Source: Escherichia coli
GTDB taxonomy: Bacteria; Pseudomonadota; Gammaproteobacteria; Enterobacterales; Enterobacteriaceae
Length of the DNA stretch: 64,000 nt
NCBI RefSeq assembly: GCF_017348835.2
Contig: NZ_CP071375.1
Strand: one strand, 5' to 3'
Part shown: positions 39,434-42,400 of the stretch, in pieces
Layout of the letters: each line of letters begins with the position of its first letter
Numbering within the stretch: position 1 is the first letter of the stretch
Made by a program: the position numbers

Positions 39434-42400
39434 TTAAGCGCGCGCTTCAACTCACCCCTGCAATATTTTGTCCATCACGCGCCCCGGCAGCAGGCGCTTA
39501 AGCACCATTACTGCCCAGGTCACCAGCGTTACCGGATAGCGCATCTTCGGCTTCTCGCTAATAAAAGCATGGCGTACTTTGTCCACCACCGCTTCCGGTC
39601 CCAACGTAAAGCGGGCGGCGATGCCGGGATTTTCGACTGGTTTATCACTTTGCGTCTGGTTGACGTTGTCGGTGAAGCGAGTACGAATGGGACCGGGTTC
39701 GATCAGGCTGACTTTAATTCCGCTGTGGCGTAGCTCCATGCGCAACGCGTCTGACCACGCCTCCAGCGCATATTTACTGGCCGCGTAAGCGCCACGACCC
39801 GGCGTGGAGATTAATCCCATCACCGATGATGTCATCACAATACGCCCTTCACCGTGCGGTAACATCGCAGGTAACAGGCGCATGGTGAGCTGGTGTGCGC
39901 CGAAAAAGTTGGCGGAAAACTGCTGTTCCATCTGCGCACGGCTGATGGTGGAAAGGGGGCCATACATGCCGAATCCGGCATTGTTAAAGATCCCATACAG
40001 ACAATTATCGGTCAGGGCGATCACCTCGTCGGCTGCGCGATCAACACTTTCTGGTGAATCCAGATCGATCAACACGCCGGTAAATCCCATGCTGTTCATG
40101 CGCTCAACATCATCCGGTTTCCGGCAACCTGCCAGCACATGAAAACCCTGGCGTTTTAATTCGAGCGCGCTTTCCAGGCCAATTCCACTGGAACATCCGG
40201 TAATTAAGACCGATTTTTGCATAACTTTACCTGTCAGGATCTCCGTTGCTTTATGAGTCATGATTTACTAAAGGCTGCAACTGCTTCGCCATCCAGTCGG
40301 CAATAAACGGCTGGGCGTCGCGGTTGGGATGAATACCGTCATCCTGCATCCATTGTGGCTTGAGGTAGACCTCTTCCATAAAAAAGGGCAGCAGCGGAAC
40401 ATCAAACTCTTTGGCGAGTTTGGGGTAAATGGCGCTAAAGGCTTCATTATAACGGCGACCATAGTTTGCAGGCAGACGTATTTGCATTAACAATGGTTCA
40501 GCGTTGGCGGCTTTGACATCCTGCAAAATCTGGCGCAGCGTTTGCTCGGTTTGCTGTGGCTGAAAACCACGCAAACCGTCATTGCCGCCCAGTTCAACCA
40601 GCACCCAGCGCGGCTGATGCTGTTTCAGCAGAGCCGGAAGGCGCGCCAGCCCTTGTTGCGAGGTGTCGCCGCTGATGCTGGCATTAACTACCGACGTTTT
40701 ACTCTGCCACTTATCATTCAACAAGGCAGGCCAGGCCGCGCTGGCAGACATTCGATACCCGGCGCTCAGGCTATCACCCAGAATCAATAACGTGTCCGCT
40801 GCGGCGGCACGGAAGGTTAACAGGACCAGGAACAGGAAGGGCAAATGCCAGCGGAAAACATTGTTGAAGTTCATCATCTTAAGAAGTCCGTCGGTCAGGG
40901 GGAGCATGAACTCTCCATCCTCACCGGAGTTGAGCTGGTTGTCAAACGTGGCGAGATCATCGCACTGGTGGGCGAGTCGGGATCGGGTAAGTCAACCTTG
41001 CTGGCGATCCTCGCCGGGCTGGATGACGGCAGCAGTGGCGAAGTGAGTCTGGTGGGACAACCGCTACATAATATGGACGAAGAAGCGCGGGCAAAGTTGC
41101 GCGCGAAGCACGTCGGCTTTGTTTTTCAGTCATTTATGTTAATTCCTACCCTTAACGCGCTGGAAAACGTCGAGCTTCCGGCGCTGCTTCGCGGTGAGAG
41201 TAGCGCGGAAAGTCGTAACGGAGCGAAAGCGTTGCTCGAACAGTTAGGGCTGGGTAAACGTCTTGATCATCTTCCGGCACAGCTTTCCGGCGGTGAACAG
41301 CAACGAGTGGCGCTGGCCCGAGCCTTTAACGGTAGACCTGATGTGCTGTTTGCCGACGAACCCACCGGCAACCTTGACCGCCAGACCGGCGATAAAATTG
41401 CCGACCTGCTGTTTTCCCTCAACCGTGAGCATGGCACCACGTTGATAATGGTGACCCACGACCTGCAACTGGCGGCACGCTGCGACCGCTGCTTACGGCT
41501 GGTGAACGGGCAGTTGCAGGAGGAAGCATGATTGCACGCTGGTTCTGGCGCGAATGGCGTTCGCCGTCGCTATTAATTGTCTGGCTGGCGCTAAGCCTGG
41601 CGGTGGCCTGCGTGCTGGCGCTGGGCAATATCAGCGATCGCATGGAGAAGGGCTTAAGCCAGCAAAGCCGTGAGTTTATGGCGGGCGATCGGGCGTTGCG
41701 CAGTTCGCGCGAGGTGCCGCAAGCGTGGCTGGAGGAAGCGCAAAAGCGCGGCCTGAAAGTCGGCAAGCAGCTGACTTTCGCCACGATGACATTTGCAGGC
41801 GACACACCGCAGCTGGCGAATGTCAAAGCGGTGGATGATATCTACCCGATGTATGGCGATCTGCAAACCAATCCCCCCGGCCTGAAACCACAGACGGGCA
41901 GCGTATTGCTGGCCCCACGCCTGATGGCACTGCTTAACCTGAAAACAGGCGACACCATCGACGTGGGTGATGCCACTTTGCGGATTGCCGGAGAAGTGAT
42001 TCAGGAACCGGATTCCGGTTTTAACCCCTTCCAGATGGCTCCGCGTCTGATGATGAATCTGGCGGATGTCGATAAAACCGGAGCCGTGCAGCCGGGGAGT
42101 CGGGTCACCTGGCGCTATAAATTCGGCGGCAGCGAGAACCAGCTCGACAGCTATGAGAAATGGTTGTTACCTCAGCTTAAACCCGAACAACGCTGGTACG
42201 GTCTGGAACAGGACGAAGGCGCGCTGGGGCGATCGATGGAACGCTCGCAACAGTTCCTGCTGCTTTCGGCGCTTCTGACCTTGCTGCTGGCAGTGGCAGC
42301 AGTGGCGGTAGCGATGAATCATTACTGTCGCAGTCGCTACGATCTGGTGGCGATCCTCAAAACGCTGGGGGCAGGGCGAGCGCAACTGCGTAAGCTAATC

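What the first reader, a model, noticed from the sequence alone, without database searches (positions are those of the whole stretch)
40845..40877. Head-to-head overlap of the tesA and ybbA coding starts
With tesA started at MMNFNNVF (208 aa) and ybbA at MPAENIVEV, the first 11 codons of each divergent gene are encoded on opposite strands of the same 33 bp. Each promoter must then lie inside the other gene's coding region, which constrains both N-termini; the TesA signal peptide is encoded opposite the YbbA N-terminus.
Basis: seen in the sequence. Interest (0 to 1): 0.3.

Follow-up and report, generated by a model that had tools for sequence, protein, structure and literature searches.

The report
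tesA–ybbA head-to-head start-codon overlap
Two neighbouring E. coli genes that point away from each other (tesA and ybbA, whose proteins work together in one membrane complex) really do share their first 30-33 bases on opposite strands, so each gene's control signals sit inside the other gene; this is real and conserved, but it is already in the reference annotation and the literature.

Summary
ybbA starts at ATG 40845 (+). tesA (-) starts at ATG 40877 (208 aa) or ATG 40874 (207 aa). The two reading frames therefore share 33 or 30 bp in exact codon register.

The window is E. coli. The K-12 reference annotation carries the same 33-bp overlap. NCBI's PGAP annotation of the matching strain uses the second ATG, giving 30 bp.

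ybbA has no alternative start. The only uncertainty lies on the tesA side. Comparison of 16 Enterobacterales loci and a published start site of transcription favour the Met-Met start over the other two candidates.

- The mapped tesA transcription start (window 40909) and its promoter (TTGACA, 17 nt, GAGGAT) lie in ybbA codons 22-34.
- All reported ybbA transcription starts are weak and lie inside tesA.

Synonymous change in ybbA is strongly suppressed over exactly codons 2-34.

In 80 gammaproteobacterial genomes the two genes are always divergent neighbours, usually with start codons 0-11 bp apart or sharing a CATG. The Enterobacterales overlap looks like an N-terminal extension of TesA over ybbA.

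The overlap is already known: a 2025 PLoS Biology paper and the 2025 ExcludonFinder list both record it. Any regulatory consequence is untested. Interest is low to moderate.

The parts
40845..40877 (.). The 33-bp stretch read as codons 1-11 of ybbA (+) and codons 1-11 of tesA (-), in the same codon register. It shrinks to 30 bp (40845-40874) if tesA starts at its second ATG.
   Evidence: K-12 annotation, 33 bp; PGAP, 30 bp. Synonymous divergence here is 0.087 against 0.58 elsewhere in ybbA.
40845..41531 (+). ybbA coding sequence, 228 aa: the ATP-binding subunit of the YbbAP Type VII ABC transporter. ATG 40845 is the first start codon in the ORF. The next canonical in-frame start is GTG at codon 42, one codon before the Walker A glycine.
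   Evidence: NCBIfam equivalog NF007879 matches residues 1-228 of 228. PDB 9GE6-8 constructs begin MPAENIVEV after a tag. The ATG sits 41-43 codons before Walker A in most of the 80 loci.
40251..40877 (-). tesA coding sequence, 208 aa including a 26-residue signal peptide: periplasmic thioesterase I / lysophospholipase L1.
   Evidence: NCBIfam equivalog NF007819. Solved structures begin at ADTLLILG, which is residue 27.
40800..40877 (-). Coding sequence of the TesA signal peptide, MMNFNNVFRWH-LPFLFLVLLTF-RAAAA, cleaved before ADTLL. The n-region (residues 1-11) is the part that overlaps ybbA.
   Evidence: The sequence and the mature N-terminus in PDB chains.
40872..40874 (-). Second ATG of tesA (M2): the start used by PGAP (207 aa). 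It is the only ATG of the pair kept in three genera.
   Evidence: M1 is ACG (Thr) in L007, L008 and L010. M2 is CTG (Leu) in Photorhabdus, where only M1 remains.
40905..40907 (-). Upstream in-frame ATG of the tesA ORF (a 218-aa form, 63-bp overlap). Rejected as the main start.
   Evidence: It lies only 2 nt downstream of the mapped transcription start, so the GGAG motif before it is not in the mRNA. It is lost or closed by a stop in L004, L012 and L013, and displaced by one codon in L035.
40842..40844 (-). TTG (Leu12) of tesA: the zero-overlap start chosen by some automatic annotations (197-aa 'MPFLFL...' proteins). Rejected.
   Evidence: Prodigal forbids 5'-5' overlaps. It leaves no charged n-region. 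The codon is TGG in L005, and there is no start codon here in the Serratia-like and Morganellaceae loci. Three in-frame AUGs lie upstream in the mapped mRNA with no stop between them.
40834..40841 (+). ybbA Shine-Dalgarno sequence AGGAAGGG. It is encoded opposite TesA codons Pro13-Phe14-Leu15, at the start of the signal peptide's hydrophobic core.
   Evidence: Predicted pairing with the anti-SD is -7.0 kcal/mol. An AGGAAG-like motif is kept in most of the 16 Enterobacterales loci, weakened in Photorhabdus (AGGAAA) and absent in Providencia.
40878..40909 (-). tesA 5' untranslated region, 32 nt, starting at the mapped transcription start 40909. It lies opposite ybbA codons 12-22.
   Evidence: Kim et al. 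2012, supplementary file 2: start site 519021 (-), 45 reads, UTR 32 nt, mapped to the window with 1 mismatch.
40917..40945 (-). tesA sigma-70 promoter inside ybbA codons 25-34: -35 TTGACA (40940-40945), 17-nt spacer, -10 GAGGAT (40917-40922).
   Evidence: Upstream sequence of the mapped start site. The -35 is TTGACA in 12 of 16 Enterobacterales loci and TCGACA in the other 4, with the spacing kept. Synonymous divergence in ybbA codons 22-34 is 0.34 against 0.58 for the rest.
40458..40690 (+). Interval holding the reported, weak ybbA transcription starts: 40458 and 40690 (Kim 2012, 2 reads each) and 40503 (Cappable-seq, score 2.45). All lie inside the tesA coding sequence, giving 5' UTRs of 387, 155 and 342 nt.
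   Evidence: No clear conserved promoter footprint shows in tesA synonymous sites.

Best explanation
This is a real, conserved head-to-head overlap of two protein-coding genes.

Start codons. ybbA starts at ATG 40845. tesA starts at the ATG-ATG pair 40877/40874. The first 10-11 codons of each gene are therefore written on opposite strands of the same DNA, in the same codon register.

Signals. There is no intergenic DNA, so each gene's expression signals are embedded in its partner:
- The tesA promoter (TTGACA, 17 nt, GAGGAT), its transcription start (40909) and its 32-nt leader lie in ybbA codons 12-34.
- The ybbA ribosome-binding site lies opposite TesA signal-peptide codons 13-15.
- The weak ybbA transcription starts lie 155-387 nt inside tesA.

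Consequence. The two promoters face each other, and the two mRNAs are complementary over at least 220 nt, including both ribosome-binding sites and both start codons. Shown, here or in cited data: the start-codon geometry, the tesA transcription start, the transcript overlap and the conservation. Inferred: this geometry couples the expression of TesA and YbbAP (partners in a 1:1:2 TesA:YbbP:YbbA complex) through polymerase collision or antisense pairing, with the much stronger tesA promoter dominating.

Evolution (inferred). The ancestral gammaproteobacterial state was back-to-back start codons, often a shared CATG. In Enterobacterales the tesA frame shifted into register with ybbA, and a new ATG was recruited 10-11 codons upstream, opposite the His10-His11 codons of ybbA. 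This lengthened the n-region of the signal peptide.
For: Geometry. The reference annotation has the same overlap; PGAP gives 30 bp.

ybbA start:
- It is the only canonical start before codon 42, which sits next to Walker A.
- It has a strong Shine-Dalgarno sequence.
- The LolD family profile begins at YbbA residue 6, and the YbbA equivalog model covers residues 1-228.

tesA start:
- One of the two ATGs is present in 16 of 16 Enterobacterales loci.
- A stop sits immediately upstream of the Met-Met pair in Rahnella (L012). The upstream ATG is absent in L004 and L013 and displaced by one codon in L035.
- His10/His11 of YbbA are CAT in 26 of 26 cases.
- The mapped transcription start lies 32 nt upstream (45 reads) with a perfect -35. 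It maps to 40909.

Promoter and constraint:
- The promoter is conserved across Enterobacterales.
- Synonymous divergence in ybbA is 0.087 (codons 2-11), 0.35 (codons 12-21), 0.34 (codons 22-34) and 0.58 (the rest). The lowest 10-codon window elsewhere is 0.465.
- The 77-bp core is identical in 99% of E. coli genomes, although only 18% are at least 99% identical over 1.4 kb.

Transcript overlap: tesA-ybbA is among the 16 divergent excludons found in RNA-seq of MG1655.

Broader conservation: all 80 genome loci have the divergent ABC ATPase next to tesA. In 60 of 73 scorable loci the starts overlap or lie at most 11 bp apart.
Against: - No direct evidence (N-terminal sequencing of the precursor, or ribosome profiling of initiation sites) was found for M1 versus M2, or against minor use of the upstream ATG at 40907.
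- The tesA Shine-Dalgarno sequence is weak (-3.2 kcal/mol).
- The ybbA transcription starts are weak and disagree between data sets. The consensus promoter scan found nothing.
- Nucleotide conservation in the shared codons is confounded. Each gene's protein constraint, and ordinary constraints near a start codon, would also lower synonymous change.
- The 16 loci are related, so the counts are not independent.
- No data here show any regulatory effect of the overlap.
Confidence: 0.85

Rival explanations
1. Annotation artefact. tesA really starts at TTG 40844 (Leu12, a 197-aa protein). The genes would then abut and no codons would be shared.
For: Many public gene calls give 197- or 194-aa TesA proteins starting MPFLFL.... 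The K. pneumoniae MGH78578 annotation has a 594-bp tesA.
Against: - Those calls are explained by Prodigal's rule that 5' ends on opposite strands may not overlap.
- The TTG has a poor Shine-Dalgarno sequence (-1.5 kcal/mol). It is TGG in L005, and no start codon sits at that position in the Serratia-like and Morganellaceae loci.
- It would leave a signal peptide with no charged n-region.
- The mapped mRNA carries three in-frame AUGs upstream with no intervening stop.
- CAT is kept in 26 of 26 His codons opposite the tesA ATGs.
Confidence: 0.04
2. Longer overlap. tesA starts mainly at ATG 40907 (MLPLTDGLLKMMNF..., 218 aa), so 63 bp (21 codons) are shared.
For: The ATG is in frame, with a strong GGAG motif just upstream (-8.4 kcal/mol). 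It is present in most Enterobacteriaceae. Some gene calls give 218-220 aa.
Against: - The mapped transcription start lies 2 nt upstream of this ATG, so the GGAG is not transcribed.
- In L012 a TAG stop directly precedes the Met-Met pair.
- The ATG is CTG in L004 and an Ile codon in L013. In L035 the position reads Val and an ATG sits one codon further upstream.
- A 21-residue n-region containing an Asp is atypical for a signal peptide.
- The ATG and the motif are also explained by YbbA coding (His21, Leu23-Ser24).
- Minor, near-leaderless use cannot be excluded.
Confidence: 0.07
3. ybbA starts downstream of codon 11, which would remove the overlap.
For: None found. The only formal possibility is a rare non-canonical start such as ATT at codon 6, which would still overlap tesA.
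Against: - There is no ATG, GTG or TTG between codon 1 and codon 42, and codon 42 is one residue before the Walker A glycine.
- ABC ATPase family profiles (LolD, FtsE, MacB) align from YbbA residues 5-7, so the first beta-strand would be lost.
- The ATG and its Shine-Dalgarno sequence are conserved.
- The ATG sits 41-43 codons before Walker A even in taxa with no overlap.
Confidence: 0.01

Closest known systems
E. coli K-12 MG1655 reference annotation of tesA (b0494) and ybbA (b0495)
   Same: Identical arrangement. tesA is 519139..519765 (-) and ybbA 519733..520419 (+), a 33-bp overlap. [quoted passage not shown]
   Different: The window comes from another strain (100% match to PE164), whose PGAP annotation starts tesA at the second ATG (30 bp). 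YbbA residue 38 is Ile here and Thr in the K-12-derived PDB construct.
Divergent excludons (overlapping 5' transcripts of neighbouring opposite-strand genes; ExcludonFinder, NAR 2025)
   Same: tesA-ybbA is listed among the 16 divergent excludons of MG1655. The start-site data place the two transcription starts at least 220 nt past each other.
   Different: In most excludons only untranslated regions overlap. Here the coding sequences and both start codons overlap as well. Mutually exclusive expression and RNase III processing have not been shown for this pair. The two products form one complex, which argues for co-expression rather than exclusion.
Divergent (head-to-head) overlapping gene pairs in prokaryotes
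   Same: It belongs to this rare class. [quoted passage not shown]
   Different: It is long for the class and a multiple of three, a phase reported as hardly ever seen. It is conserved across an order, and both genes are experimentally characterised, so it is not a misprediction.
Same-strand 4-bp ATGA overlaps (translational coupling), such as ybbA-ybbP in this window
   Same: Both are compact arrangements of genes that encode subunits of one complex.
   Different: Same-strand overlaps couple translation on a single mRNA. The tesA-ybbA overlap lies on opposite strands, involves two mRNAs, and cannot couple translation.

Membership tests
Divergent (head-to-head) overlapping coding-sequence pair | Two genes on opposite strands, transcribed away from each other, whose 5' coding ends overlap | tested here: met
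   ybbA (+) runs from 40845 and tesA (-) from 40877 or 40874.
Divergent (head-to-head) overlapping coding-sequence pair | Both partners are real protein-coding genes, not shadow ORFs | tested here: met
   NCBIfam equivalogs score far above cut-off: 413 against 270 bits for TesA, 476 against 336 bits for YbbA. Both have solved structures.
Divergent (head-to-head) overlapping coding-sequence pair | The start codons that create the overlap are the ones used in vivo | tested here: inconclusive
   ybbA is settled by elimination and conservation. tesA is strongly supported by comparison and by the mapped transcription start. M1 versus M2 is unresolved, and no direct N-terminal or initiation-profiling data were found.
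Divergent excludon | Transcripts of the two divergent neighbours overlap | tested here: met
   Literature only. The pair is listed from RNA-seq of 58 samples. The tesA start at 40909 and ybbA starts at 40690 or further upstream give an overlap of at least 220 nt.
Divergent excludon | Reciprocal (mutually exclusive) expression of the two genes | not testable with these tools
   This needs expression data across conditions or promoter mutants. Read counts (45 against 2) only show that tesA is the stronger in one data set.
Divergent excludon | RNase III-dependent processing of the double-stranded overlap | not testable with these tools
   No rnc or dsRNA data for this locus were accessible.
Sec-type signal peptide (TesA N-terminus) | Charged n-region, hydrophobic core and small-residue cleavage site, with cleavage giving the known mature N-terminus | tested here: met
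   MMNFNNVFRWH / LPFLFLVLLTF / RAAAA, cleaved before ADTLL. Solved mature chains begin at ADTLLILG. The check was by inspection, not with a signal-peptide predictor.
YbbA, ATP-binding subunit of a Type VII (MacB/LolD-like) ABC transporter | Full-length match to the YbbA equivalog, with Walker A and an N-terminal strand upstream of it | tested here: met
   NF007879 matches residues 1-228 of 228. The LolD, MacB and FtsE profiles align from residues 5-7. Walker A GESGSGKST starts at residue 43.

The most novel reading that the evidence does not exclude
The absence of intergenic DNA between tesA and the ybbA-type ATPase gene may be an ancient, selected regulatory device across Gammaproteobacteria. 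The start codons are back-to-back or share a CATG in many lineages, even though the distance between conserved protein motifs varies from 193 to 220 bp. Facing promoters and complementary 5' mRNA ends would then set the ratio of hydrolase to transporter, or make their expression switch-like. Under this reading, the 30-33-bp coding overlap in Enterobacterales arose by start-codon migration, with TesA's signal-peptide n-region overprinted on ybbA codons 1-11.
Probability: 0.25. Interest if true: 0.45.

Novelty: already known. Interest (0 to 1): 0.2.

Why it matters
The practical value is in annotation. This is one of only about two head-to-head coding overlaps annotated in E. coli K-12. Gene finders that forbid such overlaps (Prodigal) truncate TesA, removing part of its signal peptide. 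As a result, public databases hold at least four different N-termini for the same protein.

There is also a biological question. The pair encodes partners of one recently solved complex (YbbAP-TesA), so the embedded, facing promoters offer a tractable case. It could show whether transcript overlap tunes the ratio of subunits or merely reflects genome compaction.

Anyone engineering either gene should note the consequences. Examples are 'leaderless' TesA constructs, ybbA knock-outs and genome recoding. Changes in the first 34 codons of ybbA alter the promoter, leader or N-terminus of tesA. Changes in TesA codons 1-15 alter the ybbA start region.

Tried and rejected
- The consensus promoter scan over 40400-41300 found no sigma-70 site on either strand. 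The experimentally mapped tesA promoter was missed because its -10 (GAGGAT) matches only 3 of 6 positions. The scan's negative result is therefore uninformative.
- An Rfam search of 40200-41600 found no known RNA family.
- Searches for direct start-codon evidence failed. The TRAINSPOTTER N-terminomics supplements contain neither tesA nor ybbA. The retapamulin profiling preprint has no held supplements and does not mention either gene.
- Other transcription-start sources gave little:
  - Thomason et al. 2015 is not held.
  - The Rend-seq annotation paper has no held supplements.
  - The SMRT-Cappable-seq supplements do not list these genes.
  - The stored Cappable-seq file is cut and, as far as it could be read, lists + strand sites only.
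  - No K. pneumoniae start sites for the orthologues were found in the held text.
  - Mendoza-Vargas et al. 2009 tried to map the ybbA start and obtained no product.
- I looked for a conserved footprint of the ybbA promoter in tesA synonymous sites. Only shallow dips appeared (for example codons 67-76, near the start site at 40690), too weak to call.
- I considered using the substitution pattern in the shared codons to decide which frame is under protein constraint. Both proteins change there, and each change that is synonymous in one frame is non-synonymous in the other. The pattern does not discriminate.
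Full report
**What is there.** The window is E. coli chromosome: 40200-41600 is 100% identical to strain PE164, and the region is present in 5418 of 5426 complete E. coli genomes. On the + strand, ATG 40845 opens a 228-aa ORF (MPAENIVEV...), which is ybbA. On the - strand, an ORF runs from 40907 down to 40251. The Met-Met pair that begins MMNFNNVF... is encoded by 40877-40872, and this is tesA. With the 208-aa tesA start, the two coding sequences share 40845-40877. That is 33 bp, 11 codons each, in the same codon register.

**It is already annotated.** K-12 MG1655 has tesA at 519139..519765 (-) and ybbA at 519733..520419 (+), the same 33 bp. PGAP starts tesA at the second ATG in PE164, giving 207 aa and a 30-bp overlap.

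**Are the start codons right? ybbA.**
- ATG 40845 is the first start codon in the ORF. The next canonical in-frame start is GTG at codon 42, one residue before the Walker A glycine.
- Profiles of related ABC ATPases (LolD, MacB, FtsE) align from YbbA residues 5-7, and the YbbA equivalog model covers residues 1-228. A downstream start would delete part of the fold.
- The ATG has a good Shine-Dalgarno sequence (AGGAAGGG, 40834-40841; -7.0 kcal/mol).
- It is conserved in 16 of 16 Enterobacterales loci.
- It lies 41-43 codons before Walker A in most of the 80 loci examined, including taxa with no overlap.

**Are the start codons right? tesA.** The ORF offers four starts: ATG 40907 (218 aa), ATG 40877 (208 aa), ATG 40874 (207 aa) and TTG 40844 (197 aa, no overlap). 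All four occur in public protein sets.

The 197- and 194-aa 'MPFLFL...' forms are what a gene finder must produce if it forbids overlapping 5' ends, and Prodigal does forbid this. The TTG has other problems:
- It has a poor ribosome-binding site.
- It leaves no charged n-region.
- It is TGG in L005, and the Serratia-like and Morganellaceae loci have no start codon there.
- It sits downstream of three in-frame AUGs in the mapped mRNA.

The 218-aa start has a strong GGAG motif before it, but several facts argue against it:
- The mapped transcription start lies only 2 nt upstream, so that motif is not in the mRNA.
- Rahnella bruchi has a TAG directly before the Met-Met pair.
- The ATG is missing in Citrobacter sp. 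FP75 and Photorhabdus caribbeanensis, and sits one codon further upstream in Acerihabitans.

By contrast, at least one ATG of the Met-Met pair is kept in all 16 loci. M1 is Thr in three genera and M2 is Leu in Photorhabdus. The YbbA His codons opposite them are CAT in 26 of 26 cases, against 56 CAT: 28 CAC elsewhere in the gene. Mature TesA begins at ADTLLILG in solved structures, which fits a 26-residue signal peptide. I found no direct data that separate M1 from M2.

**Where are the promoters?** Kim et al. 2012 (PLoS Genet, supplementary file 2) list one tesA transcription start at 519021 (-) in NC_000913.2 coordinates. It has 45 reads, a 32-nt leader and the upstream sequence ...TTGACA-17 nt-GAGGAT-7 nt. 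This maps to the window at 40909, with the -10 at 40917-40922 and the -35 at 40940-40945. That places it in ybbA codons 22-34.

The promoter is conserved. The -35 is TTGACA in 12 of 16 Enterobacterales loci and TCGACA in the other four, with the 17-nt spacing kept. The -10 is GAGGAT, AAGGAT or CAGGAT, and CAATAT in Photorhabdus and Providencia.

For ybbA, the same data set lists two starts with 2 reads each, at window 40458 and 40690. Cappable-seq lists weak + strand starts, the nearest at window 40503, and nothing closer to the gene. An earlier directed attempt to map the ybbA start gave no product. The ybbA promoter itself is weak and not pinned down.

With these positions the two promoters face each other. 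The mRNAs are complementary over 220-452 nt. An RNA-seq survey independently lists tesA-ybbA among 16 divergent excludons of MG1655.

**Footprint in the sequence.** In 16 Enterobacterales ybbA genes, all 228 codons and free of indels, I measured the fraction of same-amino-acid codon pairs that differ:

| ybbA codons | What lies opposite | Fraction differing |
|---|---|---|
| 2-11 | tesA coding sequence | 0.087 |
| 12-21 | tesA leader | 0.35 |
| 22-34 | tesA promoter | 0.34 |
| 35-60 | nothing known | 0.56 |
| 35-220 | nothing known | 0.58 |

No 10-codon window elsewhere in the gene falls below 0.465. The suppressed zone ends where the -35 element ends.

In tesA the suppression covers codons 1-15, which are the shared codons plus the ybbA ribosome-binding site. 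It is gone by codon 16.

Within E. coli, the 77-bp core 40833-40909 is identical in 5365 of 5417 genomes. Only 967 of 5418 genomes are at least 99% identical over the surrounding 1.4 kb.

There are caveats. The loci are related, regions near start codons are constrained in any gene, and each protein constrains the other strand.

One small mechanistic point follows from the sequence. Codons for the Leu/Phe/Pro-rich hydrophobic core (CCC TTC CTG) are the reverse complement of a purine-rich Shine-Dalgarno sequence. A signal peptide is therefore easily compatible with a ribosome-binding site on the other strand. This is my inference from the sequence.

**Wider comparison.** An alignment of diverse TesA homologues retrieved 80 loci from different species, ranging from Escherichia to Vibrio, Pseudomonas, Marinobacter, Halomonas and Dokdonella. 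Every one has a divergent ABC ATPase gene directly upstream of tesA.

I used two annotation-free anchors: the GDS motif of TesA and Walker A of the ATPase. The distance between them is 192-195 bp in Enterobacterales, 193-202 bp in Vibrio and 214 bp in Pseudomonas. The start codon of each gene was chosen by independent rules. Results for the 80 loci:

| Arrangement of the two starts | Loci |
|---|---|
| Overlap of 30-39 bp (all Enterobacterales) | 16 |
| Overlap of 2 bp (a shared CATG) | 16 |
| Spacer of 0-3 bp | 11 |
| Spacer of 4-11 bp (mostly Pseudomonas; an alternative ATG there also gives CATG) | 17 |
| Spacer of 12 bp or more | 13 |
| Not scorable | 7 |

So 60 of 73 scorable loci have starts that overlap or lie at most 11 bp apart. 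The shared CATG recurs although the anchor distance varies from 193 to 220 bp.

The reading-frame relation differs between groups: in register in Enterobacterales, offset by one base in the CATG group. I infer that the back-to-back arrangement is ancestral. Enterobacterales would have acquired the coding overlap when the tesA frame shifted and a new ATG, opposite the His10-His11 codons of ybbA, was taken up. That added about 10 residues to the signal peptide's n-region.

[quoted passage not shown] It notes similar arrangements in other Gram-negative bacteria and shows a complex of two YbbA, one YbbP and one TesA. A survey of overlapping genes counted 663 overlapping adjacent pairs in E. coli, only 2 of them divergent, and noted that overlaps in multiples of three are hardly ever seen. 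The case is rare within its class, but it is documented.

**Verdict.** Novelty: already known. The remaining open points are which of the two adjacent ATGs is used, where ybbA transcription really starts, and whether the facing promoters and complementary mRNA ends have any regulatory effect. Interest is 0.2.

Noticed in passing
window 40251-40261 and 41528-41531: Both flanking junctions are also overlaps, but on the same strand. The ybbO start overlaps the tesA end by 11 bp. The ybbA stop overlaps the ybbP start in an ATGA (4 bp). The whole ybbO-tesA / ybbA-ybbP cluster has no intergenic DNA at all.
   Followed up: no
window 40842-40907 (tesA N-terminus); proteins P0070, P0089, P0019, P0010, P0005, P0035: Public protein collections hold at least four N-termini for the same TesA: MPFLFL... 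(194/197 aa), MNFN... (204/207 aa), MMNF... (208 aa) and MLxLTDGLLKMMNF... (218 aa). The shortest form lacks the signal peptide's n-region. It is what Prodigal must call, because it forbids 5'-5' overlaps.
   Followed up: yes
loci L017, L020, L021, L023-L026, L030, L031, L033, L034, L036, L054, L055, L062, L070 (tesA start at about locus position 3000): In Vibrio, Psychromonas, Rheinheimera, Dokdonella, Cycloclasticus and others, the two divergent start codons share the middle two bases of a CATG tetranucleotide. This arrangement is kept although the distance between the conserved protein motifs varies from 193 to 220 bp.
   Followed up: partly
window 40956-40958: YbbA residue 38 is Ile (ATC) in this window. 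It is Thr in the K-12-derived construct of PDB 9GE6-8 and in most Enterobacterales. The same base is the single mismatch to the published K-12 tesA promoter sequence, upstream of the -35.
   Followed up: no
window 40663-41046 (+): A 127-aa ORF in a third frame runs across the whole tesA-ybbA junction. Nothing suggests that it is a gene. It is probably a by-product of two overlapping coding regions with few stop codons.
   Followed up: no
window about 20200-29136: In the matching strain's annotation, a giant BapA-related adhesin gene (siiEA) is split into two pseudogene pieces by an IS4 transposase gene. A type I secretion ATPase gene and a HlyD-family adaptor gene follow it.
   Followed up: no
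window about 44160-44243 (-): A short gene annotated as the damage-inducible type I toxin DinQ lies just downstream of ybbP in this strain, where K-12 has rhsD. I did not check whether this is a true dinQ paralogue or a naming artefact.
   Followed up: no
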